NCBI GenBank assembly: GCA_017409005.1
Contig: JAFQTP010000002.1
Coordinates: 249,159 to 313,158, forward strand
Direction: 5' to 3'
Origin: Clostridia bacterium
Lineage (GTDB): Bacteria; Bacillota; Clostridia; Christensenellales; UBA1242
DNA length: 64,000 bases
Shown: piece after piece, positions 7,246-30,602 of the stretch
How positions within the stretch are numbered: the stretch's first letter is position 1
How the letters are laid out: the number at the start of each line of letters is the position of its first letter
Translations under genes and position numbers: made by a program
The notes under the pieces: generated by a model
Told to the model about the DNA's origin: nothing
The model's database searches: none
What the model saw: the letters and a program-made list of their open reading frames with translations, nothing else

Positions 7246-7333
7246 CTGAGCGGTCGAAAGCGGCGGTCTTGAAAACCGTTGATGTGAAAGCATCCTGGGG
7301 TTCGAATCCCTAACTCTCCGCCAAGAGGAACCG
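7246..7333 (+). tRNA. tRNA-Ser (anticodon UGA)
   Basis: 88 nt. Acceptor stem ggagagt/actctcc, anticodon loop cttgaaa (TGA), long variable arm, T-loop ggttcgaatcc, encoded CCA. Confidence 0.95.
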
Positions 7334-7334
7334 T

Positions 7335-7502
7335 ATTCTAATATACGGTTCTTTTATTTTTGTATCAAAGGTGTTGCAGGTTTTGTCGTTCCTACACAAA
7401 AAGTTCAACCAAAGCAATCACTTCATTATTTATACCTTGATAGAGATGAAAATGGAAATTGGATTAAATCTAGTAAAAAGAGTTCACAATAAATTGTGAG
7501 CC
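7335..7502 (+). other. detached 3' coding segment that would complete the recombinase ORF in the excised circular form
   Basis: Reading the int frame through the CCGCCAA core and continuing at 7335 gives 55 sense codons (EEPYSNIRFFYFCIKGVAGFVVPTQKVQPKQSLHYLYLDRDENGNWIKSSKKSSQ), then TAA at 7500-7502. It has no start codon of its own. Confidence 0.4.
7338..7371 (+). terminator. intrinsic terminator after tRNA-Ser (element-derived sequence)
   Basis: gaaccgtat-tctaat-atacggttc hairpin followed by cttttattttt. Confidence 0.7.
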
Positions 7503-7611
7503 CTTCTTTTATTGACTCCTTATATATTTGCTTTTGTTGTGCTTATCGTAGCATATTTTTCGTATAAATCAACGGAATAAAAAAATTGCATAATTAAATA
7601 CATTCTAAATT

Positions 7612-7641
7612 AAGCCAGGTAGAAATATCTGGCTTTTTTTA
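7612..7641 (+). terminator. intrinsic terminator upstream of the plus-strand gene block
   Basis: aagccag-gtagaaatat-ctggctt followed by a T-run. Its flanks are near-identical to the terminator at 13553-13584. Confidence 0.6.
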
Positions 7642-7768
7642 TTTTAGACAATTTTTTTGATTCTCTTTCGTTGATTTATACCTTTTTATCTTAAAGGTAA
7701 TTCATACAACCAAAATATACTCCTCTTGCCCTGCCAAAAGGCAAATTTATATAAGGAGGTTAAAAAGT

Positions 7769-8047
7769 ATGAATAGAAAGAAAGTTAAGTTCAGTTTAAC
7801 TAGATACTCTAAAAAAGGTTCATACAGGTTTATGGGCTATGGTGAAATTGATGAAAACAATCTTTATACAAAGAAAAAAGTTTATGAAGATTGCATTAAA
7901 AGTTGCCATAAAATGCTTAACAAACCCAATGAATACAAAGGTGGTTTTACACAATACGAAGAAATTGAATTTACAAATGATAAAAACCAACTTGTTGAAC
8001 TTGAACTAGAAGTAAGCTATGACTTATGGTTTAGAATTTTAAATTAA
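7769..8047 (+). CDS. hypothetical protein
   Basis: 92 aa with strong RBS TAAGGAGG. No motif recognised. Confidence 0.6.
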   Translation: MNRKKVKFSLTRYSKKGSYRFMGYGEIDENNLYTKKKVYEDCIKSCHKMLNKPNEYKGGFTQYEEIEFTNDKNQLVELELEVSYDLWFRILN

Positions 8048-8058
8048 GGAGTTAAATT

Positions 8059-8295
8059 ATGGAAAATTCAAAAAATTATTACTTAAAAGAATTTCAACTA
8101 TACGACGGTGAATGTTTTATCACTTTCAATATAGTTAGCATCAACTTTGAAAAGAAAACTATTGAAGTCGCTATTACCAATCGTGGGAAAATTAGTGTTA
8201 TTGAATATGACCTAAACCAAGATAAGAATGGCGATTTTTATTTTAGTTATGGTTGTGAAAGAACAAAAATTGAAATCAATGATTTTGAAGATTAA
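8059..8295 (+). CDS. hypothetical protein
   Basis: 78 aa with RBS AAGGAG, tightly packed with neighbours. Confidence 0.6.
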   Translation: MENSKNYYLKEFQLYDGECFITFNIVSINFEKKTIEVAITNRGKISVIEYDLNQDKNGDFYFSYGCERTKIEINDFED

Positions 8296-8309
8296 AAGGA
8301 GTTATAAAA

Positions 8310-8576
8310 ATGAGTAAAGAACTTGAAGAATTAGCATTTCTAAATGGATTAAGAGATGACTTAAAACAATTTGAAAGCAAAAACATTTATCGTTGTCCTT
8401 GTTGCGAAAAAATACAAGAATGGGACGACGTAAATTACAACCCTGAAGAAAATACTTACACTTGCCCACATTGTAAAGAAACATTTAATGAAATTGAATT
8501 AGAACATATCAACGCATTAGATTATTTTGTGGATATGTTTATTACTTACAAAAGTTTAAATAACAAGGAGATATAA
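8310..8576 (+). CDS. small zinc-ribbon protein
   Basis: 88 aa with RBS AAGGAG. Two CxxC pairs (CPCCEK and CPHCKE). Confidence 0.6.
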   Translation: MSKELEELAFLNGLRDDLKQFESKNIYRCPCCEKIQEWDDVNYNPEENTYTCPHCKETFNEIELEHINALDYFVDMFITYKSLNNKEI

Positions 8577-8578
8577 AA

Positions 8579-9520
8579 ATGAACGAATATACAATAAATG
8601 AAAACATTGCAAGAACTGCAAAAGAATTAAATAGTTTTAGTGATTATAAAGAAAATTCTGCTACAAACAATTATAGAAATTACCTAAAAAGATTTGAAGA
8701 AAATGTTAAAGAGTTAATGGAAGAATATCCAGAAAATATCAATGAAGAAGCGTTGCGACTTATTAAGTATTACAAAGATAGATATTCAAAGAAATTAGCA
8801 TTTGCAATAAATAAAAGCAACAGCATTGAAGCTAGAATGCCAAGTATTATGATTTCTGGCGCTGGAAATTTTAATTTTAGAAAGAAAGAAAAACAAAACC
8901 AAGCCAGAGATAGTTTTTGGAAAGAATATGGCGACTTATTCAATGAAGATAACTATTACTTTAACAAGATACGAACAATCATTACAAATAAAGTTATTTA
9001 TAGTGATGATGCACTTGCTATTGAAAAATTAGAAGCAAAAATTGACAGTTTAACTGAATATCAAAACAAAATGAAAAATGTAAATGCTTACTATAAGAAA
9101 AACAAAACATTAGATGGTTGCGAACTATTAAATGAAAACGAAATTAAAGAATTAAAAGAAAAGTTAGTTATGTTTCACTATTATAATCAGCCTTACCCAT
9201 CATTTGAACTCACAAATAACAACCAAAATTTGCACAGATTACAAGATAGATTAGAAAATTTAAAGAAATTAAAAAAACGTGCAAATACTGAAAATGAAAA
9301 CAAATACATAAAAGTTGAAGGATTAGAAGTTGTTGAAGATGCGACCGATATGAGAATAAGAATTATATTTGATGAAATTCCAAATGAACAAATAAGAACT
9401 TTATTAAAAAGATATGGCTTCAAATGGAGTCCAAAAAATAGTGCTTGGCAAAGACAACTTACAAGCAATGGCATTTATGCAACAAAAAGAGTTTTAGAAA
9501 AATTAAAGGAGCAAAAATAA
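8579..9520 (+). CDS. DUF3560-like protein
   Basis: 313 aa with RBS AAGGAG. MPSIMISGAGNFNFRKKEKQ and the C-terminal RYGFKWSPKNSAWQRQ resemble DUF3560 proteins of conjugative and integrative elements. This is from memory, not a search. Confidence 0.45.
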   Translation: MNEYTINENIARTAKELNSFSDYKENSATNNYRNYLKRFEENVKELMEEYPENINEEALRLIKYYKDRYSKKLAFAINKSNSIEARMPSIMISGAGNFNFRKKEKQNQARDSFWKEYGDLFNEDNYYFNKIRTIITNKVIYSDDALAIEKLEAKIDSLTEYQNKMKNVNAYYKKNKTLDGCELLNENEIKELKEKLVMFHYYNQPYPSFELTNNNQNLHRLQDRLENLKKLKKRANTENENKYIKVEGLEVVEDATDMRIRIIFDEIPNEQIRTLLKRYGFKWSPKNSAWQRQLTSNGIYATKRVLEKLKEQK

Positions 9521-9521
9521 T

Positions 9522-10460
9522 ATGAATGTAAAAGAAAAACTAAAAGATTTTTTAAATAACAATCAAACAAGAGAATTATGGCTTAATAGAAAAGATTTTA
9601 AGCCAACAAATTATGATGACATTATTAGATTGATAAAAATACCTTTCGGAAGATTTGACTATATTTACGGAATGGAAAACATTAGAAATAATAAACCTAC
9701 TCATTATAGCAACCCTTCGTTTTGTGGGATTATTGATACAAAAGATAATCAGTTATATGTAATTTCATATAATCTAACGCAAGTTGATCAAGATATTAAA
9801 TACACTTCAAGCAGTGCTTTAAATGAAAAGTTAAAAGAAATGTTATTACAAGCGTATGAAAAATTTGCAGAAACTGTTGAAGATGATTTAACAGAAGATG
9901 CTATTTATTACAACAGAAGAAATGCTGAAGATGACTACTACTATAATAGAAGGAACTTTTATCAATATACTCTTGGAATTAGCGAAAAAGAGATAGAAGA
10001 ACTTATAACATTTGTTGAAAACCCTACTGAATATGTAGACTTGTATATTAAAATGCTTGAATTAGATAAAAATAAACTTACACGACATATTAAGGAATGT
10101 AAATTACAAAGAAGATTAGCAAATTTATACTACAACGAAATTGAAACAAAACCTGAATATCATTATTTAAGATTGGCAAGAAAACTAAACGCTTCAATCC
10201 CAGAGAATGCAAAAACTGTCAATCTTTTTTACAAGCTTGATAATGGTGAAATAATGGAATGTAAATTTGAAGTATCTGGACTGAATTATGCCCCTTATGA
10301 TAAAGGCGAAAACTTGCATTTCAGTTATTTTAATTTAGATAAACAAGCAAGAGATAAATTAGAACAAGCAAATGGTAAAAAATACGATAATGTTTACATT
10401 AGAAACATAATGAAAGCTACATATAAAGGCAAAACTATTTATGAAAAGGAAGAAAAATAA
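9522..10460 (+). CDS. hypothetical protein
   Basis: 312 aa with RBS AAGGAG. No motif recognised. Confidence 0.6.
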   Translation: MNVKEKLKDFLNNNQTRELWLNRKDFKPTNYDDIIRLIKIPFGRFDYIYGMENIRNNKPTHYSNPSFCGIIDTKDNQLYVISYNLTQVDQDIKYTSSSALNEKLKEMLLQAYEKFAETVEDDLTEDAIYYNRRNAEDDYYYNRRNFYQYTLGISEKEIEELITFVENPTEYVDLYIKMLELDKNKLTRHIKECKLQRRLANLYYNEIETKPEYHYLRLARKLNASIPENAKTVNLFYKLDNGEIMECKFEVSGLNYAPYDKGENLHFSYFNLDKQARDKLEQANGKKYDNVYIRNIMKATYKGKTIYEKEEK

Positions 10461-10461
10461 A

Positions 10462-10716
10462 ATGAGAAATACGAAAGAATTAAAACCAATTTTAACAGCA
10501 CTATATTGTATAAATCAATGTGGTGCAAATGATATAGATATTAGAACACTTTGTGAATATGTTTTTAATAGAATTTTTGGAGGTTCAGCAAATATACTTG
10601 CATTATGTTGTTGTGGAAAAACAAAAGAAGAAATACTTTTAGAACTTGAACCAGTGTTAAAAGATACAAAATATAAAGAATATAAGGAAATGAGAGATGA
10701 ACATAGAAGACAATAA
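10462..10716 (+). CDS. hypothetical Cys-rich small protein
   Basis: Start trimmed to MRNTKEL (ATG 10462) behind AAGGAAG. 84 aa. Confidence 0.5.
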   Translation: MRNTKELKPILTALYCINQCGANDIDIRTLCEYVFNRIFGGSANILALCCCGKTKEEILLELEPVLKDTKYKEYKEMRDEHRRQ

Positions 10717-10966
10717 ATATGGATATAAAGTTTGTTATCAAAAAGATAATGAAAAACTGAAAAGGCATTTAGTTACTAACTCATATGATTTAGCAAAATG
10801 GGAAATTGAGAGATATGAAAAATCTCCACCTATAGACAAACAAAATCGCATTTTAGATAATGTGAAATGGTATATATTACCTGTAAAAACTTATTTTGAA
10901 TATTCAATACTTTGGAGAGGTTGTCCTTTTAGGGATTACCTCTCTGATTTTATTAAAAGGAGTTAA
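10697..10966 (+). CDS. hypothetical protein
   Basis: 89-aa ORF overlapping the previous gene by 20 nt. Weak RBS. Confidence 0.45.
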   Translation: MNIEDNKYGYKVCYQKDNEKLKRHLVTNSYDLAKWEIERYEKSPPIDKQNRILDNVKWYILPVKTYFEYSILWRGCPFRDYLSDFIKRS

Positions 10967-10968
10967 CA

Positions 10969-11643
10969 ATGATTAAGTTAGATTTAGAAACTAAAAATGA
11001 AGCTGAAAAAAGAATAAAAGATTATTTAGAAAACAATGTCAGCGAAATATTAGCAGAAAAAATCAATAACGGTGTTCATATAACCAAAGATGAAAAGATT
11101 TTAATCAATAAAAAGACACTATCTGGGTTTATGAAATACGCAGGAAGTGAAGCTAAAAAACTCGCAGAAAAAGGAGCAAATTTTGCTTGTATTGAAGATA
11201 TCACTGTTTATGGTTGGGCTATTCACTACTTTGAAGAAGAAAGTATTGAAGGCAATCTATATAACGAAGATGGAAGCGAATATAAAGTTGAAGTTAAAAC
11301 AACACCAAAACCTGCTCCAAAAGTTGAAAAACCAAAGAAAGAAAACAATCAACAAACACTATTTGATTTAATGAATTTCTGTGATGATGAACCTGAAAAA
11401 GAAGAACTTGAAGAACCACCTATTGAATATGACGAAGTTGAAGATTCTGATAATGATATAGACGACTTTACAGAAGAAGAAATTGAAGAAGCATTAGAAA
11501 TTGTTGCTGAAGAAACAAAACCTGTCGCAGACCTTCAAATTGACACTGAAACAGGCGAAATTAAGCCACAAACAAGTTCGTTTGATAAAGAAACAATGAT
11601 AATGCTTTATAGCTTATTAGATGGTAAAATGGAGGTTAAATAA
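10969..11643 (+). CDS. PcfK-like / AcrIIA9-family-like protein
   Basis: 224 aa. The N-terminal part (EKRIKDYLENN ... FMKYAGSEAKKLAEKGANFACIEDITVYGWAIHYFEEESIEG) resembles PcfK-like proteins. The C-terminal half is very acidic. It sits immediately upstream of a PcfJ-like gene, as in known elements. Confidence 0.45.
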   Translation: MIKLDLETKNEAEKRIKDYLENNVSEILAEKINNGVHITKDEKILINKKTLSGFMKYAGSEAKKLAEKGANFACIEDITVYGWAIHYFEEESIEGNLYNEDGSEYKVEVKTTPKPAPKVEKPKKENNQQTLFDLMNFCDDEPEKEELEEPPIEYDEVEDSDNDIDDFTEEEIEEALEIVAEETKPVADLQIDTETGEIKPQTSSFDKETMIMLYSLLDGKMEVK

Positions 11644-12957
11644 ATGATTACAGAAAAGAATATAAGAAAAATACCAAAGTATATAATTGAGTTAATAAAA
11701 CAAAAAGATAAAAATAAAAAGCAAGATGGAAATACAAGATTTTACAAGTATTTCACTAAATACAATAATGAATTGTGTGAAGTTACAGTTGCTGTTAGAA
11801 ACTATTACAAAAAATGGTTTTGCAAACAAGTTATTGTTCACGGCATACACTCGGATAAATGCTATTTACAAGATATTATGAGAGTTATGTCTTATTACAA
11901 AGTTGGTTGGTATCGTGAAGGAATATCAAGATATCCTAAATATCAAGATTATGATTGGGGTTGGCAATATGATAACTACTTCAATATGACTGAACCTGAA
12001 ATTGTAAACAAAGATTACATACTCACTTTACCAGAATATAAATACTCGGCAATAGACAAATATGATTATTGCAACACATTAAAATACTTACGCTTTTATG
12101 AAAAATATCCACAAGCTGAATTGTTGGTTAAAATTGGTTTATCAAATCTTGCAACAAGTAAACAAATCTTACAGAAATGTGCAAAAGATAAAAGTTTTTG
12201 CAAGTGGATATATAAAAACCAAGAAGAACTTAAAAAGCATAATTGCTATATATCTTCTATTATCAGAGCATACAACAAAAATTGCTCAATAAAAGAAATT
12301 TACGACTATGATAGATTCAACCTTGAATTTAGTCGTGAAGGCAACTTTACTAGACTTAAAGCAATGTTAAAAGAAAATGAGAAAGAAACTTTCTTAAAAT
12401 ACATAGTAAAACAAAAAACTAATGGATATAGCTATATAGATTACTTAAACGCTTGTGAGTATTTAGGTTTAGATATGAACGAAGAAAAACATAGATATCC
12501 ACATAATTTCAAGAAGTGGCACGATATTAGGATTGATCAATATCACACACAAAAAGCCATAGAAGATGAAAAAGCAAGAAAGGAACTATATAATAAATTC
12601 AAAAACGTTGCTGATAAGTATTTATCACTTGAACGACTTTTAGTAAAAGATGATTATGTTTGTTTAATTGCAAAAAGTCCAGCACAACTGATATTTGAAG
12701 GCGAACAACTAAATCACTGTGTAGGAAGAATGGGCTATGACCAAAAATTCATAAGAGAAGAGACTTTAATATTCTTTATACGAAATAGATTAGAACCAAA
12801 CACACCTTTCGTTACACTTGAATATTCGCTTAAAAATCATAAAGTTTTACAATGCTACGCTTATGGTGATACAAGACCAGCAGAACAAGTTTTAGAATTT
12901 GTTAATAAAACTTGGCTACCATACGCAAATAGAAAAATAAAAAAATTAGCTGTTTAG
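11644..12957 (+). CDS. PcfJ-like protein
   Basis: 437 aa. The C-terminal EGEQLNHCVGRMGY motif and the pairing with a PcfK-like gene support the call. Confidence 0.5.
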   Translation: MITEKNIRKIPKYIIELIKQKDKNKKQDGNTRFYKYFTKYNNELCEVTVAVRNYYKKWFCKQVIVHGIHSDKCYLQDIMRVMSYYKVGWYREGISRYPKYQDYDWGWQYDNYFNMTEPEIVNKDYILTLPEYKYSAIDKYDYCNTLKYLRFYEKYPQAELLVKIGLSNLATSKQILQKCAKDKSFCKWIYKNQEELKKHNCYISSIIRAYNKNCSIKEIYDYDRFNLEFSREGNFTRLKAMLKENEKETFLKYIVKQKTNGYSYIDYLNACEYLGLDMNEEKHRYPHNFKKWHDIRIDQYHTQKAIEDEKARKELYNKFKNVADKYLSLERLLVKDDYVCLIAKSPAQLIFEGEQLNHCVGRMGYDQKFIREETLIFFIRNRLEPNTPFVTLEYSLKNHKVLQCYAYGDTRPAEQVLEFVNKTWLPYANRKIKKLAV

Positions 12958-12969
12958 GAGGAAATAAAA

Positions 12970-13281
12970 ATGACTAATTATTATAGAATTACTGGCTATT
13001 GGCCAGAAAACGATTGCTGTTTTATAATGGACTCAAATGGAATGTTTGAAAAATTATGGCAATTCAGTTCTTACTTAATCTCAAAGGGATTAAAAGTATT
13101 AAAAGTTTCAAAAATAGAAAATGTGCTTGATATCAACATTGATAAAGTTCAATACGATACCGAGCACATTTTTTTAAGAGCAAATGCAGATGGTGAACCT
13201 GAATTTGTAAATCATGCAATAGATGGTATTACTTATCCAGCAGTTAAAGTTGCAGATAAATTATATATAATAAAGGAGTAA
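12970..13281 (+). CDS. hypothetical protein
   Basis: 103 aa with RBS TAGGAGG. Confidence 0.6.
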   Translation: MTNYYRITGYWPENDCCFIMDSNGMFEKLWQFSSYLISKGLKVLKVSKIENVLDINIDKVQYDTEHIFLRANADGEPEFVNHAIDGITYPAVKVADKLYIIKE

Positions 13282-13286
13282 AATGT

Positions 13287-24451: not shown

Positions 24452-24473
24452 AAATCCTCCTTGTAAATTTATT

Positions 24474-24520: not shown

Positions 24521-24529
24521 TTAGAGTTG

Positions 24530-24688
24530 TTATATTAAGCCATTCCAACCAAATATATTTAAAGCTTCTGCAAGCCACTGTATCGCAGTTGCAAGAAAAT
24601 CAAATATTTTAGATATAATGCTTAACGGCCAAGTTCCAAATAACACCACTAAAACAATTATCAAAATTGTTATGAATAAGTTTTTCAT
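24530..24688 (-). CDS. small hydrophobic protein (52 aa, below ORF-track cutoff)
   Basis: Manual translation gives MKNLFITILIIVLVVLFGTWPLSIISKIFDFLATAIQWLAEALNIFGWNGLI. It starts 12 nt after the stop of the 69-aa gene. Confidence 0.5.
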   Translation of the reverse strand: MKNLFITILIIVLVVLFGTWPLSIISKIFDFLATAIQWLAEALNIFGWNGLI

Positions 24689-24700
24689 AGGAAATTAGCC

Positions 24701-24910
24701 TTATGCAATAGGTGTTTCAGTAATCGCTTCGGCTACCTGTTCAGCTGAATCTGCAATAGTTCCAGCATTGCCACCAAACCATTCACAAACTTGTTCACCA
24801 AAAGTTAGTCCATTAACAGAACAACCAATAGCAACAGCTAAACTGAATAGTAAAATAGCACCAACAATTCCTAAAATAATCCATAGAGCAATTTTTAGTT
24901 TTTCGTTCAT
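24701..24910 (-). CDS. small membrane protein (candidate virion or envelope component)
   Basis: 69 aa with RBS AGGAGGAA. N-terminal TM helix (IALWIILGIVGAILLFSLAVAIG) and an acidic C-terminal tail. Confidence 0.6.
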   Translation of the reverse strand: MNEKLKIALWIILGIVGAILLFSLAVAIGCSVNGLTFGEQVCEWFGGNAGTIADSAEQVAEAITETPIA

Positions 24911-24937
24911 AAATTCCTCCTGTAATTAGATTTTTGC

Positions 24938-25285
24938 TTATCTCATAAGCATTTTTAACAATGACTTATCAGATGCTTTAAATGGTTTAATTTTACATTC
25001 GTAAATTTCGCCATTTTCATCAACAGAACGAACCAAGAAAGAATTTCCAGAAACAACATTTCCAGAAGCGTCTTTAAGTTCGTATGGAACAGCTACAAGT
25101 TCAGCTTTCATCTCATTGCCAAAAACAATGTCTAAAACTGTATAACCACCAAAATCAGGTGGAGTAACGGCAATTTTAACGTCTTTGCCTCTAATACTAC
25201 CTTTGATAAAATAGGTGTAGAATGATTTACCATTCTTTTCAATTAACTCTCTTTCAACAACAATAACATTTTCTTTTTTTGCCAT
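24938..25285 (-). CDS. hypothetical beta-rich protein (possible ssDNA-binding role, by position only)
   Basis: 115 aa with RBS GGAGG. No motif recognised. It occupies the slot just before the small membrane proteins. Confidence 0.5.
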   Translation of the reverse strand: MAKKENVIVVERELIEKNGKSFYTYFIKGSIRGKDVKIAVTPPDFGGYTVLDIVFGNEMKAELVAVPYELKDASGNVVSGNSFLVRSVDENGEIYECKIKPFKASDKSLLKMLMR

Positions 25286-25548
25286 TATTTTTTACCTCCA
25301 ATTTGTCTTGAATATTTCTTTGCTTCGGTCTTTGATTTACCTTCATTTAAAGCTTTCTTGTATTTGAAAATACCAATGTGGTCATTTTTCATTTGCAAAG
25401 CACCAATTCTTACGCACGCTTCCTTGTCTGTTAAAGGTTGTCCTTCCTTTGGACCGTGCATGTGGACTTTGTTTTTTAATTCTTCTGCATAACGTTTAGC
25501 TCTAGTATTTGGACTAAGCCAACGTCTTTCTCTAACTTTATTTGCCAT
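25285..25548 (-). CDS. hypothetical basic protein
   Basis: Start trimmed to MANKVRERR (ATG 25548) behind AAGGAGAA. 87 aa, Lys/Arg-rich. Confidence 0.55.
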   Translation of the reverse strand: MANKVRERRWLSPNTRAKRYAEELKNKVHMHGPKEGQPLTDKEACVRIGALQMKNDHIGIFKYKKALNEGKSKTEAKKYSRQIGGKK

Positions 25549-25724
25549 TTGATTCTCCTTAAAATATTTTGTTTGTTTGCCTTTATATAGGGCTATTAAG
25601 TTGTTAATAATTGTGAGATAATCACTGAAACAACACGTCTCCTGCGATATATAGTGGTAGACGGCCATCTTTACTTTTAAAAACCACAATCAATCGTTCA
25701 AAATTTCATTTATCTCAACAATTT

Positions 25725-25970
25725 TTAATCAATGTATTTGCGTATATAACTTGCTGAACGCATACGCTTTCCATTGATATTTTTGCCACGAACTTTATAA
25801 ACAAGTTCGTAGTCAGTATCTCTTTTTCTAGTGCGAAGTAGGTAAATGTCATCACTCATAATTAGGGTGTTGCCTTTACCACTGCGACATAGAGATACTT
25901 TTTGACAAACAATGTAATCTTTTGTGCGATAAACATTGTCTGCCTCCATAAAGTAATCAACGGTAGTCAT
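25725..25970 (-). CDS. hypothetical protein
   Basis: 81 aa with RBS AAGGAGGAA. ATGA overlap with the upstream gene. Confidence 0.55.
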   Translation of the reverse strand: MTTVDYFMEADNVYRTKDYIVCQKVSLCRSGKGNTLIMSDDIYLLRTRKRDTDYELVYKVRGKNINGKRMRSASYIRKYID

Positions 25971-26236
25971 AACTTTTCCTCCTTTTTAATTTTGTTATCA
26001 ACAATCTCTTTGGCTTTTTCTTTCTTCTTTTGGTTAATAAATTCACCAAATTGTTGTTGATATTTTTGGAGCATAATGCCTGATATTCTGTGAATAAGTT
26101 CTTCTTGCATATCAGTAAGACCGTTAATATTTAGTTCTGTAACTTTTACATAAAGAGGAACATTCGTTAAATAACTACCGTCAGCATTACGAAGCCCTAT
26201 ATATGCAACTTTTTGATACATTTCACTCACAAGCAT
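25967..26236 (-). CDS. hypothetical protein
   Basis: Start trimmed to MLVSEMYQ (ATG 26236) behind AAGGAGAA. 89 aa. Confidence 0.55.
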   Translation of the reverse strand: MLVSEMYQKVAYIGLRNADGSYLTNVPLYVKVTELNINGLTDMQEELIHRISGIMLQKYQQQFGEFINQKKKEKAKEIVDNKIKKEEKL

Positions 26237-26308
26237 TTTCTCCTTTTTAGATTTGAGAGATTTAACACCTCTCACTTAATAGGCACGAAAATTGCAAAAA
26301 GGGACTCC

Positions 26309-26749
26309 CTAAATGCAAAATTTTTTAATTTTTTTATAAATTTTTCTTAATCGGTTGCGAATTGCTGTATGGTCAATGCCTAATTCTTGTGCTATTTCAG
26401 CTTGTGAACGTCCTTTAAAATAAATTTCATATATAAGCCATTGTTGTTCTTTTGAAAGGGTTGAAATTGCCTTGTGTAATTCTTCATACATTTCATCTTT
26501 AATAAGTTTTTCTTCTAAATCTGATTCTTCATCTTCAAACTCGTGTCCGTTTTCAAGAGATAGGTCAAGAGATTGATGACGCCTTGTTTCTTTTAATTCA
26601 GACAAATACTGTTCATGTTCTGCAACAATATATTCGTGCATAACTTGCGCATCTGCTTTTTCAAGTAATTTTGCAGTTTTGTCATCTACCATTGCATAAA
26701 TTGTTTTAGTTTCATTGTTCTTTGTAATTTGTGTTGTTAATTTTTTCAT
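26309..26749 (-). CDS. sigma-70 region-4-type transcription regulator
   Basis: Start trimmed to MKKLTTQI (ATG 26749) behind AAGGAG. The C-terminal LSKEQQWLIYEIYFKGRSQAEIAQELGIDHTAIRNRLRKIYKKI is a region-4 HTH. Confidence 0.6.
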   Translation of the reverse strand: MKKLTTQITKNNETKTIYAMVDDKTAKLLEKADAQVMHEYIVAEHEQYLSELKETRRHQSLDLSLENGHEFEDEESDLEEKLIKDEMYEELHKAISTLSKEQQWLIYEIYFKGRSQAEIAQELGIDHTAIRNRLRKIYKKIKKFCI

Positions 26750-26771
26750 TTCCGACTCCTTGAATTTGAAA

Positions 26772-26857
26772 TCCACAGAGCCGTATTTCCACAAACAAAA
26801 AGACGGCATGAAAAGCTTTTGAGATTTGCTTTCCAATGCCGTCTAACGGTCTGTGGA
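26772..26857 (-). promoter_or_regulatory. nested hairpin containing an intrinsic terminator between the first gene and the sigma-like gene
   Basis: Inner stem agacggcat/atgccgtct is followed on the minus strand by ttttgtttg. Outer stem tccacaga(g)ccgt/acggtctgtgga encloses it. Confidence 0.5.
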
Positions 26858-26882
26858 CTTATATATTTAATTTGTAAAGACT

Positions 26883-27035
26883 TTACGCTGTCTTTAAAGC
26901 GTTTTGAATTTTGACACTACCATCATCAAGAAATTCAATTAAAGTTCTTTCACCTTTAATAACAATTTCAACAAGACGCTTGGCTTTATCAATACAACAA
27001 ACAAGTCTATTGCTACCATTTCTAACTTCTTGCAT
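26883..27035 (-). CDS. hypothetical small protein (first gene of minus-strand operon)
   Basis: Start trimmed to MQEVRNGSN (ATG 27035) behind AAGGAGGAAG. 50 aa. Confidence 0.5.
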   Translation of the reverse strand: MQEVRNGSNRLVCCIDKAKRLVEIVIKGERTLIEFLDDGSVKIQNALKTA

Positions 27036-27133
27036 ATTGCTTCCTCCTTTTATAAATTGACTAACCATAAACCTTTGTTTCGGTGATTACAACTGCATTA
27101 TATAAAAGGAATTTTTGAAAAACCATCACATTA

Positions 27134-27371: not shown

Positions 27372-27977
27372 ATGAGAACCAAAGATAAAGAGTTAATGAA
27401 GAAGATGCTTAATTACATTAACGACAGCTTTGAAAAGACAGGCAGAACTCCGACTTATAGAGAAATAGCAAGTGAATTTTCTATTACAAGTGGTTGTGTA
27501 AGCAACTATATTAAAGAAATGGCTGAAAAGAATATGTTAGAAAATTCTTCTGGTAGTCGTGGTATAAGAACTCTTAAAATGAAAAAATCAAACAATGCTA
27601 TTGAACAATTAGGAGTTGTTGGTTCTATTGCTTGTGGAAGTCCTATGTATGCAGAAGAAAACATAGAAACCTACATATCTTTTCCAAGAGCATTATTAGG
27701 AAATGGTGAATTTTTTATTCTACGAGCAAATGGCGAAAGTATGATTGATGCTGGAATTGATGATGGCGATCTTGTAATTATACGAAAACAAGAAACTGCT
27801 GAAGAAGGCGACATTATTGTTGCTCTTATAAATGATGAGGCAACCTTAAAAAGATTTTATCGTGATAAGAAAAAAAGAAAAATAAGGTTGCACCCAGAAA
27901 ATGCAAAGCTTGAAGATATGTATTTTGATAATATCGCAATTCAAGGTGTTGCAATTAAGGTCATTAAGGACCTATAA
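27372..27977 (+). CDS. LexA/CI-like S24 peptidase repressor
   Basis: 201 aa. N-terminal winged HTH. IACGSPMYAEE occupies the position of the LexA VAAG cleavage loop, giving Cys-Gly as in UmuD. Ser nucleophile in NGESM and Lys in TLKRF. Confidence 0.8.
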   Translation: MRTKDKELMKKMLNYINDSFEKTGRTPTYREIASEFSITSGCVSNYIKEMAEKNMLENSSGSRGIRTLKMKKSNNAIEQLGVVGSIACGSPMYAEENIETYISFPRALLGNGEFFILRANGESMIDAGIDDGDLVIIRKQETAEEGDIIVALINDEATLKRFYRDKKKRKIRLHPENAKLEDMYFDNIAIQGVAIKVIKDL

Positions 27978-28128
27978 ACTTGATAATAATATAAAATTTG
28001 CCCCGAATTTTATGTTGTTATATATATTCACATAAGTAATAGACTCGTTCATGTGGAATCCCAACCCTGTAATTAGTTTATTAAATCTAAAACTTATGTG
28101 TTTTGGGATTTGGAGGTGTTTTACAAAA

Positions 28129-28302
28129 ATGGAAAAACCTAAAAGAGTTAAGGTCTGTTGCCCTGATTGTTCTAAATACTTTATGGCTACACCTAAAGAA
28201 GATGGCTCAATTAGTAAGCAATGTCCTAATTGTAAAGTTGTTGTTTTCATTAAAGAAAGAAATGGGAACGAAAAACTAATCAAATTAAAATATGTTAAAT
28301 AA
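28129..28302 (+). CDS. Com-like zinc-ribbon protein
   Basis: Start trimmed to MEKPKRVK (ATG 28129) behind GGAGG. 57 aa with CPDC...CPNC, a size and pattern like Mu Com-family proteins. Confidence 0.45.
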   Translation: MEKPKRVKVCCPDCSKYFMATPKEDGSISKQCPNCKVVVFIKERNGNEKLIKLKYVK

Positions 28303-28526
28303 TCAAAATCTAATGCGTTTATAAAGCAAAATTAAGGTTGGGTTGAAACATTATCAGTGGTAAGTCCTTATTCACTACTTTATAAATAAGATTCGTGGTA
28401 TGTGTTCTTTGAAACACCTTGACGAATGTGGTTATCGAGAGAAATCACACAGTTGGGGTGTTTTTCTATACTTGTTTTTAGAAAAACATCTCAATATCTA
28501 ATTCAAATCAAGGAGTTGTAATTAAG

Positions 28527-28835
28527 ATGATAGAAATGGAAAAGATTAGAAATGATTTGAAAGATATTCGTTATTATGTATCTCGCAAGAAAGTTTTTGA
28601 TGCTAATTCTGATTTTGTTGGGGTTAACAATATCACTGAAAAACTAAAAATGTATAATGATGCTGTTTGTTCGGCTTCTCCAAGATTGTATGATATTTAT
28701 GTGTCGTTGTATTTGAATAATCAAACACAAGAATCTTTATCTGAAATTTTGGGTTATTCGTTTCAAACAATATCAAGGTTAAATGTCCAACTTTTAAATC
28801 ATTTCTACAAAAAATTGAATGAAAATGTTGCTTAA
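28527..28835 (+). CDS. small sigma-70 region-4-like HTH protein
   Basis: 102 aa with RBS AAGGAG. LYLNNQTQESLSEILGYSFQTISRLNVQLLNHF resembles a region-4 HTH of phage or ICE late regulators. Confidence 0.45.
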   Translation: MIEMEKIRNDLKDIRYYVSRKKVFDANSDFVGVNNITEKLKMYNDAVCSASPRLYDIYVSLYLNNQTQESLSEILGYSFQTISRLNVQLLNHFYKKLNENVA

Positions 28836-28849
28836 TAAAAATTTAGTTT

Positions 28850-29000
28850 TTGAAATTGCCTTTGCTTTGTGTAGTGCCACCTTTGGTTAAATTGTCAAGG
28901 GAAACTGAATTATCCCTCGTAAAGCATAAGTCAGTTTCTTTATCCTTGACAATCTAACTTTTCAAAGGTGGCGAAAAGTTGGGTGCAAAGGCAATTTGCA
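28850..29000. repeat. ~150-nt four-segment imperfect palindrome immediately upstream of the recombinase gene
   Basis: Four perfect stems: aaattgcctttgc/gcaaaggcaattt (13 bp), gccacctttg/caaaggtggc (10 bp), attgtcaagg/ccttgacaat (10 bp) and gaaactga/tcagtttc (8 bp). Confidence 0.8.
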
Positions 29001-29030
29001 AAATTAAACACTAAAAGGAGTTTAGAATAG

Positions 29031-30572
29031 ATGGAAAGTTGTGTAATATATGCTAGATTTAGTTCACACGGTCAAAATGAACAAAGTATTGAAGCACAAG
29101 TTCGTATTTGTAAAGAATTTGCAGAAAGTAAAGGTTTGAAAACTGTTAATATTTATAATGATAAAGCAAGAACAGGAACAAACGATTCTCGGCCAGAATT
29201 TCAAAAAATGATTACTGACGCTCAAAGTGGTGCTTTTAAGTATATCATTGTTTATATGTTTGACAGATTTGCGAGAAACCGTAGAGATAGCATTATGTAT
29301 AAAGAAATGCTTAAAGAAAAATATGGCATAAAGGTTTTGTCGGCATTAGAACCTATTGCAGAAGATGAAGGTGGCGAATTTTATGAAATGTTTTTGGACT
29401 GGAACGCAGAAAAATATAGCAAACGACTTTCAAAACGTGTTAAAGATGGGCTTGATACAAGTGTTGCAAATGGAACTTTTTGTGGTGGCTATTTGATATA
29501 TGGCTACAAAATTGATTATGAACCTATTGCTGGCAAAGTTGGTAAATTTATAAAAAGAGTTGTAATCAATGAAGAAGAAGCCGAAGTTGTTAAATTTGTT
29601 TTTGAACAATATGACAAAGGTATTCCTAAACTAGAAATCGCACAGGCACTAAATGAAAAAGGATTACGATATAAAGGCAAACCTTTTAAAGGAAGAACTT
29701 TTGATAAATATCTTGTAAACAAAAAATACACTGGCGAATTTGAATTTGGTGGAAGACATTGTGATAATATGTATCCTCAAATTGTTTCAAAAGAATTATT
29801 TGACAGAGTTCAAAAGAGATTGAATAAAAACAAATACTTTTTAGGTGGCGTTAACAAAGCTAAAATTGAATATTTATTGACAGGCAAACTGTTTTGTGGG
29901 CATTGTGGAACAGAAATGGTTTCAGATGGTGGCGTTAGTAAAACTGGTGCTACTCATTACTATTATGCTTGCAAGAAAAAGAAAAAATCTCAATGTGATA
30001 AACGCAGAGAAAATAAAGATAAGTTGGAATTTTATGTTGTATCTTGTGTGCGCGATTTTCTTTCAGACAAGAAAAACGCAGAAGTTGCAACAAATGACGT
30101 TTTGGCTTATTACGAAAAAAGAACTGATACAAGTGTATTGAAATCAGTTCAAACAAAAATTGCTAATGCTAAAAAGGAAATTGAAGAACTTGCAGATTCT
30201 TTTGTAAAAGCAAAAAACAAACTTTTACAAGATACCATTGAAAAGAAAATGGAAGAATATGAAATATTGCTTAATGATTTAATGTATCAAGAAGCTCAAC
30301 TTGAATTAGAGCGTGGATACAAGATAACAAAAAAAGACATACTTGAATTTGTCGCAGAAATATTAAAAGGCGACCTAAATGATAAAGATTATCAAAAGAA
30401 ACTTATTGACAATCTTGTTAGTCAAGTTTATGTCAGTGATGATGATACGGTTGTATATTTATATATAAAAGGTGGAAACACTATTGATTTGCGTGATATA
30501 GATGATACAAAAGAAGCTATAAAAATGGCTAATTCTGTTAGAATGCAATCACCACCGTCCCGCCAAAATTAA
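29031..30572 (+). CDS. large serine recombinase (integrated-form ORF)
   Basis: 513 aa with RBS AAAGGAG. N-terminal resolvase domain (VIYARFSSHGQNEQSIEAQ), recombinase domain, zinc ribbon CGHCG...YYYACKKKKKSQC, and a C-terminal coiled coil. Confidence 0.9.
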   Translation: MESCVIYARFSSHGQNEQSIEAQVRICKEFAESKGLKTVNIYNDKARTGTNDSRPEFQKMITDAQSGAFKYIIVYMFDRFARNRRDSIMYKEMLKEKYGIKVLSALEPIAEDEGGEFYEMFLDWNAEKYSKRLSKRVKDGLDTSVANGTFCGGYLIYGYKIDYEPIAGKVGKFIKRVVINEEEAEVVKFVFEQYDKGIPKLEIAQALNEKGLRYKGKPFKGRTFDKYLVNKKYTGEFEFGGRHCDNMYPQIVSKELFDRVQKRLNKNKYFLGGVNKAKIEYLLTGKLFCGHCGTEMVSDGGVSKTGATHYYYACKKKKKSQCDKRRENKDKLEFYVVSCVRDFLSDKKNAEVATNDVLAYYEKRTDTSVLKSVQTKIANAKKEIEELADSFVKAKNKLLQDTIEKKMEEYEILLNDLMYQEAQLELERGYKITKKDILEFVAEILKGDLNDKDYQKKLIDNLVSQVYVSDDDTVVYLYIKGGNTIDLRDIDDTKEAIKMANSVRMQSPPSRQN

Positions 30573-30602
30573 AACTAATCCCAACGTAGATTAGTTTTTT
30601 TG
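30572..30602 (+). terminator. intrinsic terminator (probably the original tRNA-Ser terminator)
   Basis: aaactaatc-ccaacgta-gattagttt followed by a T-run, 6 nt after the CCGCCAA repeat. Confidence 0.7.

What the first reader, a model, noticed from the sequence alone, without database searches (positions are those of the whole stretch)
7328..30602. 23-kb integrated element at the 3' end of tRNA-Ser(UGA), bounded by a CCGCCAA direct repeat
The heptamer CCGCCAA, GC-rich in an AT-rich genome, occurs at the tRNA discriminator/CCA end (7328-7334). It occurs again at 30560-30566, 6 nt before a terminator hairpin that looks like the original tRNA terminator. The DNA between the two copies is accessory: a large serine recombinase at the right end, an S24 repressor, an HUH Rep, a Zot-like ATPase and about 35 orphan genes. 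Both flanks are housekeeping. The element looks composite, with a plus-strand accessory block, a cargo triad and a virus-like module. It could be two fused elements mobilised by a single recombinase.
Basis: partly seen in the sequence, partly recalled or inferred. Interest (0 to 1): 0.6.

Follow-up and report, generated by a model that had tools for sequence, protein, structure and literature searches.

The report
Serine-integrase filamentous prophage in tRNA-Ser
A 23.2-kb prophage resembling a filamentous phage sits exactly at the 3' end of a serine tRNA gene, inserted by a large serine integrase from a clade that targets tRNA ends and whose own gene loses its tail on integration.

Summary
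The heptamer alone is not significant. In them the tRNA-Ser 3' end joins directly to 30567 onward, 100% identical on both sides, which defines a 23,242-bp insertion.

The same element (at least 99.7% identical) also sits at tRNA-Ser(GCU) and tRNA-Ser(GGA) genes, and its integrase has at least 8 different right junctions. It has therefore moved recently.

The mobilising enzyme is a 513-aa large serine recombinase. Its attP is a 48-bp inverted repeat centred on tRNA nt 71-72. The outer attP motif copies the tRNA T-loop and lies 5 bp further out than in attB, as in the published LSR model.

The attP core lies inside the integrase ORF. Integration therefore replaces a conserved C-terminal tail of about 55 aa (remnant at 7325-7492).

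The cargo includes an inovirus-like module: an HUH Rep, a Zot-like ATPase, small membrane proteins and hairpins next to Rep. It also carries a LexA-like repressor and a 10-kb accessory block.

I found no evidence for "two fused elements". No circular junction was found in any collection.

The parts
7236..7323 (+). tRNA-Ser(UGA), intact after integration. Nt 73-76 (GCCA) are supplied by the element if the crossover is at nt 71-72.
   Evidence: ARAGORN; Rfam; identical to the empty-site contig L001.
7300..7342 (+). attL. It consists of the B half-site (7300-7318; T-loop GTTCGAAT at 7300-7307, half-site positions 19-12) and the P' half-site (7319-7342; ATTCTAAT at 7335-7342, positions 17-24). The predicted crossover dinucleotide is CC at 7318-7319. 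The shared core CCGCCA is at 7318-7323.
   Evidence: Half-site table; empty site; LSR geometry from PMC3783163.
7324..7362 (+). Element-borne hairpin plus T-run directly after the tRNA. It is a replacement terminator, and its loop holds the P' outer motif. The feature is conserved in relatives, with the stem arms differing but staying complementary.
   Evidence: Terminator scan; left ends of L044, L056, L071 and L058.
7325..7492 (+). Detached 3' end of the integrase ORF. It encodes 55 codons plus a stop, in frame with 29031-30566 across attP, and carries the conserved motifs C-[ILV]-K-G-V-A-G and NG-x-[FW]-[IV]-K. It has no start codon of its own.
7769..13547 (+). Accessory block on the plus strand, 11 ORFs. 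It includes a primase-like protein (phrog_19458) at 8579-9520, PcfK-like at 10969-11643, PcfJ-like at 11644-12957 and DUF6809 at 13287-13547.
   Evidence: Pfam; PHROGs; PcfJ and 103-aa homologues in MT835493.
13638..16987 (-). Three cargo genes: a 427-aa protein of unknown function, a 455-aa protein with a DEDDh (DnaQ-like) exonuclease domain, and a 184-aa YpsA-type SLOG protein. They may form a defence or nucleic-acid-processing cassette. This was not established.
   Evidence: Pfam; PADLOC domain-level hits only; NCBIfam.
17054..17664 (+). Two Cro/C1-type HTH proteins.
   Evidence: Pfam.
17665..17845 (-). Intergenic region just 3' of rep with two long GC-rich hairpins (about 17684-17745 and 17778-17845). 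It is a candidate ssDNA origin or packaging signal.
   Evidence: DNA fold with z = -6.5; inverted repeat I15; relatives also carry a long hairpin 3' of Rep.
17846..18898 (-). Rolling-circle Rep of the G2P/ORF2 family. Motifs: FCTFTY, HFH (216-218) and YIMKY (278-282).
   Evidence: Pfam PF23343, 37.7 bits against a cutoff of 27.8; motifs.
19245..20057 (-). Zot/pI-like P-loop ATPase (270 aa, Walker A GKT). No transmembrane segment was found.
   Evidence: phrog_197, E = 2.5e-8; Pfam Zot at 20.2 bits against a cutoff of 20.3; 35% identity to the Zot of bajarodino virus 12; model matches 2r2a at E = 9.5e-8.
20069..25285 (-). Virion-like block. It holds an 856-aa protein (N-terminal TM, coiled coil, Listeria-Bacteroides repeats, BspA-type LRR), a 170-aa and a 443-aa protein with N-terminal TM segments, and 52-aa and 69-aa hydrophobic proteins that are coat-protein candidates. 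A 115-aa protein is a possible ssDNA-binding protein; this is inferred from its position only.
   Evidence: Pfam; hydropathy; conserved with the LSR in many relatives.
25285..27068 (-). Early/regulatory genes on the minus strand: 134-, 81- and 102-aa proteins, a sigma-70 region-4 protein (26309-26836) and a 61-aa protein.
   Evidence: Pfam; PHROGs.
27372..27977 (+). LexA-like S24 repressor. The Ser (GESM) and Lys (LKRF) residues are present. The cleavage site reads CG.
   Evidence: Pfam; PDB 3k2z at E = 4.5e-29; promoter-like site at 27301-27329.
28051..28835 (+). Two small genes upstream of int: an 83-aa zinc-ribbon-like protein and a 102-aa protein with a weak sigma region-4-like HTH. They are candidates for an int regulator or a directionality factor. 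This was not tested.
   Evidence: The 102-aa protein is 100% identical in elements whose integrases are only 69% identical.
29031..30572 (+). Large serine recombinase in its prophage form (513 aa). The last full codon (AAT) and the stop (30570-30572) are host DNA.
   Evidence: Pfam Resolvase + Recombinase + Zn_ribbon_recom; sequence.
30537..30579 (+). attR. It consists of the P half-site (30537-30560; GTTAGAAT at 30537-44, positions 24-17) and the B' half-site (30561-30579; AAACTAAT at 30572-79, which is ATTAGTTT on the other strand at positions 19-12). The core CCGCCA is at 30560-30565.
30572..30602 (+). The original terminator of the tRNA (weak hairpin plus T7). It now lies behind the integrase gene.
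   Evidence: It follows the tRNA directly in the empty-site contigs L001 and L003.

Best explanation
This is a complete, recently mobile temperate element of 23,242 bp. It is most likely a prophage of the filamentous-phage order Tubulavirales with an unusually large accessory load. It is integrated at the 3' end of tRNA-Ser(UGA) by its own large serine recombinase (LSR).

Shown by the data:
- The insertion is precise.
- Nearly identical copies occupy three tRNA-Ser isoacceptor genes.
- The recombinase belongs to a large clade in gut Clostridia/Christensenellales MAGs whose members sit next to tRNA-Ser, tRNA-Ala or tRNA-Met 3' ends.

Inferred from anatomy:
- attP is a 48-bp site, 30537-30566 joined to 7325-7342. 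Two inverted 8-bp motifs (GTTAGAAT / ATTCTAAT) flank 32 bp.
- The centre of attP, and so the 2-bp crossover, falls on tRNA nt 71-72 (CC).
- In attB the left half-site is the tRNA T-arm and acceptor stem. The T-loop GTTCGAAT serves as the outer (zinc-ribbon-domain) motif and lies 5 bp closer to the centre than in attP. This is the published feature that distinguishes attB from attP for serine integrases.
- The element carries GCCA and a hairpin terminator, so the tRNA stays intact and terminated.

Because the attP core lies inside the integrase ORF, two forms of the enzyme are predicted. The excised circle would encode a 567-aa integrase with a conserved tail of about 55 aa. The prophage encodes a 513-aa form that ends in host DNA. 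I propose that this tail swap reports the integration state to the enzyme, for example through its stability, its activity or its directionality. This last step is speculative.

The LexA-like repressor suggests SOS-linked induction. Rep together with the hairpin region suggests rolling-circle ssDNA replication. The Zot-like ATPase and the membrane proteins suggest extrusion of filaments.
For: Precise empty site: L001 and L003 are 100% identical to both flanks and overlap only in CCGCCA(A).

Recent mobility:
- Copies at least 99.7% identical lie at tRNA-Ser(GCU) (L007, L008, L013, L014) and tRNA-Ser(GGA) (L009).
- Six distinct right junctions were seen in DNA.
- Eight distinct C-terminal tails occur within one 90%-identity integrase cluster.
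- The empty and the occupied Ser(UGA) site co-occur in sample ERZ28653878 (L001 and L011).

LSR identity: Resolvase + Recombinase + Zn_ribbon_recom.

Clade: 66 loci were found in GTDB genomes. The tRNA lies upstream and its last nucleotides are repeated in the int 3' end in L044 (Ser), L056 and L071 (Ala) and L058 (Met). Core types are listed.

Site geometry: the P and P' motifs match 8-10 of 10 at positions 24-15, and the T-loop sits at positions 19-12 in B. This matches positions 16-24 against 11-19 in Rutherford et al. 2013 (PMC3783163).

The tail is coding:
- The integrase frame stays open for 49-56 codons in 5 lineages, while other frames are mostly closed.
- L056 and L071 differ at 5 of 156 nt, all at third codon positions and all synonymous.
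- A 12-nt indel keeps the frame.
- A profile of the tail finds 75 database ORFs. Their similarity starts exactly at the core, and their N-termini are unrelated translated tRNA.

Virus-like module:
- Rep Pfam hit and HUH motifs.
- Zot by PHROG, by PDB sequence and by fold against 2r2a.
- 35% identity to the Zot of a circular 9.8-kb Inoviridae genome.
- N-terminal TM segments or hydrophobic small proteins, in canonical order.
- Hairpins next to Rep here and in relatives.

Repressor: LexA-like with an intact Ser/Lys dyad.
Against: - No attP junction, and no integrase ORF carrying the tail, was found anywhere. This covers the protein database, IMG/VR and JGI metagenomes, where the one hit (L095) is a solo left end. 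Excision and the long isoform are therefore inferred.
- A strong intrinsic-terminator-like hairpin lies between the core and most of the tail. It could stop int transcripts in the circular form.
- No recombination directionality factor was identified.
- At 23.2 kb the element is larger than the deposited inovirus genome it best matches (9.8 kb).
- The Zot-like protein has no TM segment, and its Pfam score is just under the cutoff.
- No coat protein or ssDNA-binding protein was identified by homology.
- The B' half-sites of other insertion sites match the outer motif only loosely.
- It is not shown that the three tRNA-Ser sites belong to one host species.
Confidence: 0.8

Rival explanations
1. 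The element is a composite of two independent elements fused in tandem: a left accessory element and a right virus-like element. Both would be moved by the single recombinase.
For: There are three blocks with different strand bias and slightly different G+C: 0.276 for 7325-13600 against 0.31 for 17850-27100. Relatives exist that hold only Rep plus small genes plus the LSR, or the virion module without the left block. Tandem arrays and remnants of related elements do occur elsewhere, in L029 and L035.
Against: There is no second CCGCCA, no P or P' arm and no tail motif inside 7325-30559. The whole unit is found intact at the tRNA-Ser(GCU) site on one contig (L008 + L018). The left end plus the left block always travel together in 9 contigs. 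PcfJ and 103-aa homologues occur in the same distant record (MT835493) as homologues of Rep, the 115-aa and 134-aa proteins, the S24 repressor and the 102-aa protein.
Confidence: 0.1
2. The element is not a virus. It would be an integrative rolling-circle plasmid or mobilisable island. The Zot-like ATPase and membrane proteins would serve another export function, and PcfJ/PcfK would point to a conjugative lifestyle.
For: PcfJ and PcfK are families named from a conjugative plasmid. No coat protein or SSB was recognised by homology. The size is 23 kb. Small relatives of 3.8-10 kb lack the Zot module altogether. No encapsidated or circular copy was found in IMG/VR.
Against: No relaxase, coupling protein or type IV secretion gene was detected in any family scan. 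Rep belongs to the filamentous-phage/plectrovirus G2P-ORF2 family. The best structural match of the ATPase is the Zot N-domain, by four orders of magnitude. The gene order (small TM proteins, large anchored proteins, then Zot) is that of inoviruses. The closest deposited Zot belongs to a circular Inoviridae genome from a faecal virome.
Confidence: 0.15
3. The 55-codon read-through across attP is not a real coding region. Its conservation would reflect DNA or RNA functions of the left end: the P' arm, the tRNA terminator, and a promoter or accessory binding sites.
For: Part of the conserved peptide (FFYFC) is simply the U-tract of the terminator read as codons. No database protein fuses the recombinase to the tail. 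The isolated tail gives only a moderate model (pLDDT 73, pTM 0.29) with no fold match.
Against: All five differences between L056 and L071 are third-position and synonymous in this frame. The frame stays open for 49-56 codons in an AT-rich genome, where I estimate by hand that chance would give about 1%. Motifs well downstream of the terminator (Y-L...R...NG-x-F-x-K) are conserved across Ser- and Ala-targeting lineages whose integrases are only about 65% identical. An indel preserves the frame. The ORFs lack any consistent start codon of their own.
Confidence: 0.15
4. The element is a fixed, decaying prophage remnant that no longer moves.
For: No circular junction was observed. Remnants of related elements exist, such as the L035 mini-remnant and the L095 solo end.
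Against: An empty site 100% identical on both sides exists in the same set of metagenomes. Copies at least 99.7% identical lie at different tRNA genes and flanks. All major ORFs are intact.
Confidence: 0.03

Closest known systems
Large serine integrases of temperate phages (Listeria A118/LI, phiC31, Bxb1, SPbeta)
   Same: The domain set is the same: Resolvase, Recombinase and a zinc ribbon. The zinc ribbon is followed by a coiled-coil-like stretch, judged by eye. attP is about 48 bp and attB about 38 bp, both quasi-palindromic. The central dinucleotide is non-palindromic. The outer (ZD) motif is shifted 5 bp inward in attB (against PMC3783163).
   Different: The target is the 3' end of a tRNA gene rather than a protein-coding gene or intergenic site. 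The B-arm outer motif is the universal T-loop. The attP core lies inside the integrase ORF. The best identity to any integrase in the deposited phage collection is 37%.
phiRSM-type filamentous phages of Ralstonia (serine recombinase, tRNA-Ser)
   Same: A filamentous-phage-type element integrates through a serine-family recombinase at the 3' end of a tRNA-Ser gene, with a repressor next to the integration module (PMC4471427).
   Different: The phiRSM Int is a small resolvase/invertase-type enzyme without the Recombinase and zinc-ribbon domains. Its core is 13 bp, and its attP lies between int and the repressor gene. Its hosts are Gram-negative and its genomes are about 9 kb.
tRNA-targeting genomic islands and prophages with tyrosine integrases (including Pf4 and Pf5)
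   Same: Integration is at a tRNA 3' end, and the element restores the tRNA sequence.
   Different: No tyrosine recombinase is present. The repeat is 6 nt rather than tens of nt. Mageeney et al. 2020 state that large serine integrases had not been known to target tRNA genes, and they found only 14 of 297 candidates, which they flagged as needing proof (PMC7192596).
Integration-dependent immunity of mycobacteriophage BPs
   Same: attP lies inside a gene. The prophage therefore encodes a C-terminally shortened protein, and the free phage encodes a longer one (PMC4557955).
   Different: In BPs the split gene is the repressor, the integrase is a tyrosine recombinase, and the lost tail is an ssrA-like degradation tag. 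Here the split gene is the serine integrase itself, and the function of the tail is unknown.
SSV1-type 'suicidal' integrases of archaeal viruses
   Same: The attachment site lies within the integrase gene (PMC8371274).
   Different: Those are tyrosine recombinases whose gene is disrupted by integration, and the cited review (PMC8371274) describes them as exclusive to archaea. Here only the last 55 or so codons are exchanged, and all catalytic and DNA-binding domains stay intact.
Inoviruses from genome and metagenome mining, and bajarodino virus 12 (PQ006185)
   Same: A Zot/pI-like ATPase with 35% identity over 190 aa, an RCR Rep, small hydrophobic proteins and an integrase-plus-repressor module.
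   Different: This element is 23.2 kb against 9.8 kb. It uses an LSR, whereas that genome's integrase is annotated only as 'integrase', of untyped class. It also carries sigma-like and LexA-like regulators and a 10-kb accessory block. Its 6-nt repeat is below the 10-bp or longer att criterion used in the large inovirus survey (PMC6813254).

Membership tests
Large serine recombinase (serine integrase) integration module | N-terminal resolvase catalytic domain, followed by a Recombinase domain and a zinc-ribbon domain | tested here: met
   PF00239 at 1.9e-26, PF07508 at 4.4e-17 and PF13408 at 4.7e-9, in that order.
Large serine recombinase (serine integrase) integration module | attP of about 50 bp and attB of about 40 bp, imperfect inverted repeats around a 2-bp crossover, with the outer ZD motif 5 bp closer to the centre in attB | tested here: met
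   The motif sits at positions 24-17 in P and P' and at 19-12 in B (and in B' of the window site). This holds in 5 lineages. The criterion comes from PMC3783163. The crossover position itself is inferred, not measured.
Large serine recombinase (serine integrase) integration module | Precise insertion shown by comparing an occupied site with an empty one | tested here: met
   L001 and L003 against the window, 100% identical on both sides.
Large serine recombinase (serine integrase) integration module | A recombination directionality factor for excision | not testable with these tools
   RDFs share no common family. The candidates are the 83-aa and 102-aa proteins at 28051-28835.
Inovirus / Tubulavirales prophage | pI/Zot-like morphogenesis ATPase | tested here: met
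   phrog_197 at 2.5e-8. 2r2a matches by sequence at E = 0.003 and by fold at E = 9.5e-8. Pfam Zot scores 20.2 against a cutoff of 20.3. The usual C-terminal membrane segment was not found.
Inovirus / Tubulavirales prophage | Rolling-circle HUH Rep of the pII/G2P type | tested here: met
   PF23343 scores 37.7 bits, above its cutoff of 27.8. The HUH and YxxKY motifs are present.
Inovirus / Tubulavirales prophage | Small hydrophobic coat proteins and an ssDNA-binding protein between the rep/regulatory genes and the adsorption genes | tested here: inconclusive
   52-aa and 69-aa proteins with one hydrophobic segment each sit in the expected place. No family match was found for them or for the 115-aa protein.
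Inovirus / Tubulavirales prophage | Structured intergenic region (origin or packaging hairpins) | tested here: met
   Two long hairpins lie 3' of rep, z = -6.5. Relatives carry a long hairpin in the same position. Function was not tested.
Inovirus / Tubulavirales prophage | Circular ssDNA genome packaged in filaments | not testable with these tools
   No circular contig or attP junction was found.
tRNA-integrating islands with tyrosine integrase | A tyrosine recombinase next to the att site | tested here: not met
   No Phage_integrase hit in any of about 38 ORFs scanned in and around the element. The only recombinase is the LSR.
phiRSM-type integration (small serine recombinase at tRNA-Ser) | A resolvase/invertase-size recombinase without Recombinase and zinc-ribbon domains | tested here: not met
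   The enzyme is 513 aa and has both extra domains.
Integration-dependent isoform switch (BPs-like) | attP inside an ORF, so that the prophage and free forms encode proteins with different C-termini | tested here: met
   The core lies in codons 510-512 of int, and the stop codon is in the host flank. The tail ORF is conserved under a synonymous-only pattern.
Integration-dependent isoform switch (BPs-like) | The two isoforms differ in stability or activity | not testable with these tools
   This needs biochemistry or genetics. The model of the tail alone is uninformative.

The most novel reading that the evidence does not exclude
This element represents a clade of large serine integrases that has specialised on tRNA genes. 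Its attP imitates the tRNA T-loop and acceptor end. That would explain how it switches between Ser, Ala and Met tRNAs and between Ser isoacceptors. Its attP core is embedded in the integrase reading frame, so integration removes a conserved tail of about 50 aa. The integrase would then exist as a 'free-form' and a 'prophage-form' enzyme with different stability, activity or directionality. That would be a built-in sensor of integration state. I know of no such description for serine integrases, and the literature searches run here found none.
Probability: 0.4. Interest if true: 0.75.

Novelty: new variant of a known kind. Interest (0 to 1): 0.55.

Why it matters
Serine integrases are leading tools for inserting large DNA. 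Their natural targets were thought to avoid tRNA genes: a 2020 survey found only 14 of 297 candidates at tRNA or tmRNA genes and asked for proof (PMC7192596).

This window gives a clean natural before-and-after pair and a family of 66 or more related loci. It shows a simple logic for retargeting: keep the T-loop as the outer motif and change the inner half-site.

An integrase whose C-terminus changes on integration would offer a new handle on directionality, which is the main open problem in serine-integrase biology and engineering.

The element also adds a large, temperate, filamentous-phage-like prophage in uncultured gut Clostridia. Surveys that require att repeats of 10 bp or more would miss it.

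Tried and rejected
1. I searched for the circular attP junction or the long integrase.
   - A protein search with the 567-aa form found 1,385 relatives. The 12 longest or best-covering proteins I inspected all had unrelated tails after ...SPPSRQ.
   - The 90% cluster has no 567-aa member.
   - The tail profile found only short ORFs.
   - attP-specific DNA patterns gave 0 hits in IMG/VR and 0 in held loci.
   - One JGI hit (L095) is a solo left end not joined to int.
2. The heptamer is not evidence of an att site, because its count is not significant.
3. A Zot search in IMG/VR found no relatives.
4. PADLOC on the three cargo genes gave only domain-level exonuclease hits, so I make no defence-system call.
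5. NCBIfam added nothing beyond the DnaQ-like domain and a weak sigma-like HTH.
6. The AlphaFold model of the tail alone (pLDDT 73, pTM 0.29) had no fold match with E below 2.9.
7. The internal repeat search found no hidden att site.
8. I considered whether many right flanks of relatives are native tRNA terminators or P' arms of neighbouring elements. The CGAAC motif often sits at attP-like spacing, and L029 is clearly a tandem case. I left this unresolved.
9. G+C content of the flanks cannot settle whether the Ser(UGA), Ser(GCU) and Ser(GGA) sites lie in one species.

Full report
**Observation.** ARAGORN and Rfam place tRNA-Ser(UGA) at 7236-7323 on the plus strand. CCGCCAA covers the last six nucleotides of the tRNA plus one, at 7318-7324. 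The second copy at 30560-30566 is correct. The heptamer occurs 8 times in the window against 3.5 expected, so it proves nothing by itself.

**Empty site.** Looking up the right-flank radical-SAM protein (30658-31521) returned short metagenome contigs. In L001 (ENA ERZ28653878) and L003 (Logan SRR12529064) the 3' part of the tRNA is followed directly by AATTAAAACTAATCCCAACGTAGATTAGTTTTTTT and the radical-SAM gene. By blastn, L001 1-55 equals window 7270-7324 and L001 49-1650 equals window 30560-32161. Both are 100% identical, and the only overlap is CCGCCAA. The insertion is therefore exactly 23,242 bp.

**Recent mobility.**
- Look-ups of the first element gene and of the 102-aa gene next to int returned many contigs from ruminant-gut metagenomes.
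- The left end is at least 99.7% identical to the window from 7298 onward. Upstream of it, however, lie different tRNAs: Ser(GCU) in L007, L008, L013 and L014, and Ser(GGA) in L009. The junction is always ...CTCTCCGCCA|AGAGGAACCG.
- One 27-kb contig (L008 plus L018) carries the whole element, about 23.3 kb, at the Ser(GCU) gene.
- Six different right junctions are seen in DNA.
- The 90%-identity cluster of the integrase holds 13 proteins. Adding the tails of P0001 and of the window form gives eight different tails after ...SPPSR.
- The base after CCA is A, C or T at different sites, so the shared core is CCGCCA.
- Sample ERZ28653878 contains both the empty and the occupied Ser(UGA) site (L001, L011).

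**The recombinase and its clade.** The 513-aa protein has Resolvase, Recombinase and zinc-ribbon domains in the order typical of large serine recombinases. A scan of one genome per GTDB species found 66 related loci, mostly Clostridia and Christensenellales gut MAGs. One of them is a goat-caecum MAG with a 99% identical enzyme. No integrase in the deposited phage collection exceeds 37% identity.

In four relatives the other end of the element lies within reach:
- L044: tRNA-Ser(GCU), an element of only about 3.8 kb.
- L056 and L071: tRNA-Ala(CGC).
- L058: tRNA-Met(CAU).

In each, the last nucleotides of the tRNA are repeated inside the 3' end of the integrase ORF. Among 53 loci with at least 50% identity, 27 carry CCGCCA, at least 8 carry CTCCACCA and 2 carry CTCTACCA.

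**Site architecture.** I wrote all half-sites from the outside toward the centre.
- P and P' share a 10-nt outer motif at positions 24-15: GTTAGAATGC / ATTAGAATAC in the window, and GTTCAAACGC on both arms in L044 and L058.
- The two motifs are separated by 32 bp, and the midpoint falls on tRNA nt 71-72 (CC, or CT for Met).
- In the B arm the T-loop GTTCGAAT/GTTCAAAT occupies positions 19-12, which is 5 bp closer to the centre.
- The B' arm of the window site has ATTAGTTT at positions 19-12.

This matches the structural model of Rutherford et al. 2013, in which the zinc-ribbon-domain motif lies at bp 16-24 in attP and bp 11-19 in attB (PMC3783163). The window attP is therefore predicted to be 30537-30566 joined to 7325-7342, with crossover at 7318-7319 / 30560-30561.

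With that crossover, nt 73-76 of the tRNA in attL come from the element. This explains why identity extends beyond the two crossover bases.

The P' motif sits in the loop of a hairpin followed by a T-run (7324-7362). This hairpin replaces the displaced terminator. The feature is conserved in relatives, where the two stem arms differ in sequence but stay complementary to each other.

**The integrase gene spans attP.** The stop codon of the prophage form (30570-30572) is host DNA. Joining 30566 to 7325 keeps the frame open for another 55 codons, which gives a 567-aa protein.
- The same frame is open for 49-56 codons in L044, L056, L071 and L095, while the other two frames are mostly closed.
- L056 and L071 differ at five positions in 156 nt. 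All five are third codon positions and synonymous.
- A 12-nt indel in the hairpin keeps the frame.
- The peptides share C-[ILV]-K-G-V-A-G-[FI]-[VI] and, further on, Y-L...R...NG-x-[FW]-[IV]-K.
- A profile of the tail finds 75 database ORFs of 24-98 aa. Their N-termini are unrelated, and several are the tRNA T-arm read as protein ('GFES'). Their similarity begins exactly at the core.

I conclude that the tail is coding and can only be translated as the C-terminus of the integrase from the excised form.

Two caveats remain. No fused protein or attP junction was found in any collection. The terminator-like hairpin also lies within this reading frame. The function of the tail is unknown. Its isolated model is a pair of beta-hairpins of moderate confidence with no fold match.

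**What the element carries.**

*Minus strand, 27068 down to 17846:*
- A 61-aa protein and a sigma-70 region-4 protein.
- Four small proteins, including a 115-aa protein in the position of an ssDNA-binding protein.
- 69-aa and 52-aa hydrophobic proteins.
- 443-aa and 170-aa proteins with N-terminal membrane segments.
- An 856-aa protein with an N-terminal anchor, a coiled coil and BspA-type LRR repeats.
- The Zot-like ATPase, a basic 94-aa protein, and Rep.

*Rep:* it matches the G2P/ORF2 family above threshold and has the FCTFTY, HFH and YIMKY motifs.

*The ATPase:*
- It hits phrog_197.
- It matches the Neisseria Zot N-domain 2r2a by sequence.
- Its AlphaFold model (pLDDT 73) matches 2r2a by fold at E = 9.5e-8, four orders better than the next hit.
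- It is 35% identical to the Zot of bajarodino virus 12, a circular 9.8-kb Inoviridae genome from rodent faeces.

*Hairpins next to rep:* the 180 nt just 3' of rep fold into two long GC-rich hairpins (z = -6.5). Four relatives have a long hairpin in the same place.

*Plus strand, next to int:*
- A LexA-like S24 repressor with the Ser/Lys dyad.
- An 83-aa zinc-ribbon-like protein.
- A 102-aa protein with a weak sigma-like HTH.

*Left 10 kb:* this region encodes a primase-like protein (phrog_19458, E = 1e-72), PcfK- and PcfJ-like proteins, DUF6809, a DnaQ-like exonuclease protein and a YpsA SLOG protein.

**Composite or not.** Relatives show that the family is modular.
- Some have only Rep and small genes plus the integrase.
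- L020 has a different virion block.
- L017 and L019 swap the LRR protein for DUF285 variants.

For this element, however, there is no internal att-like sequence. The 23-kb unit moves as a whole. PcfJ and 103-aa homologues lie in the same human-faecal phage scaffold (MT835493) as homologues of Rep, the 115-aa and 134-aa proteins, the S24 repressor and the 102-aa protein. Modular mosaicism is supported. A tandem fusion of two elements is not.

**Comparison with what is known.**
- Mageeney et al. 2020 wrote that large serine integrases had not been known to target tRNA genes. They found 14 of 297 such cases and asked for experimental proof (PMC7192596). My literature searches found no later description.
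- The phiRSM filamentous phages integrate at tRNA-Ser through a small resolvase-type serine recombinase (PMC4471427).
- An attachment site inside a gene is known for the BPs repressor (PMC4557955).
- It is also known for archaeal SSV-type tyrosine integrases, which the review describes as exclusive to archaea (PMC8371274).
- The large inovirus survey required att repeats of at least 10 bp (PMC6813254). That criterion would miss this element.

**Verdict.** As a prophage at a tRNA gene it is ordinary. Three features make it a new variant of a known kind and worth a bench test: the enzyme class, the T-loop mimicry of attP, and the integrase ORF that is cut at attP.

Noticed in passing
window 7107-7138 vs 7222-7253: A 32-nt direct repeat (91% identical) duplicates the leader and first 18 nt of the tRNA-Ser gene 115 bp upstream of the real gene. 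It may be a remnant of an older rearrangement at this locus (family D9).
   Followed up: no
window 58588-58788 (-): A T-box leader scoring 116 bits, well above the Rfam gathering score. It is unrelated to the element.
   Followed up: no
L035 about 12750-12950: A miniature remnant. A left end (CCGCCAA, hairpin, NGVAG motif) is followed after about 20 nt by a right-end P arm (TTAGAATGCAAACACCACCGTCCCGC). It looks like an element whose interior was deleted, and it lies downstream of an intact relative.
   Followed up: partly
L029 11536-11600 and about 16400-16550: This goat-caecum MAG carries a 99% identical integrase. There the integrase 3' end abuts a P'-like arm (GCGTTCGAAC) of a different element instead of a plain terminator, and a second left end lies 4.9 kb further on. 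This suggests tandem arrays of related elements at one tRNA.
   Followed up: partly
L044 3452-7327: A minimal relative. tRNA-Ser(GCU), about 2.2 kb of DNA and the integrase make an element of only about 3.8 kb with the same attP architecture. It could be a satellite or a stripped-down integrative module.
   Followed up: partly
window 28527-28835; L017, L019, L020, L022, L024: The 102-aa protein just upstream of int is 100% identical in elements whose integrases are only 69% identical. This indicates a recombination breakpoint between the two genes.
   Followed up: no
window 20069-22639; L017 and L019: The 856-aa LRR_5 protein is replaced by 945- and 921-aa DUF285-containing variants in otherwise closely related elements. 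This is the pattern expected of a host-recognition cassette.
   Followed up: no
L095 7520-7770: A left end with the full tail ORF is preceded not by a tRNA but by two CCCGCCAA copies 70 nt apart, with a terminator between them. It is followed by an AraC-type gene instead of the usual cargo.
   Followed up: partly
database proteins P0133-P0202: Gene callers, including NCBI's (hypothetical protein IJW32_03370), annotate small 'proteins' that start inside tRNA genes and run into the detached integrase tail. These look like annotation artefacts of this element family.
   Followed up: yes
L007 4146-5354: The left flank of the Ser(GCU) insertion site carries a reverse-transcriptase (RVT_1) gene. The right flank in L025 carries an N6 DNA methylase. 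This neighbourhood may itself be an accessory or defence region.
   Followed up: no
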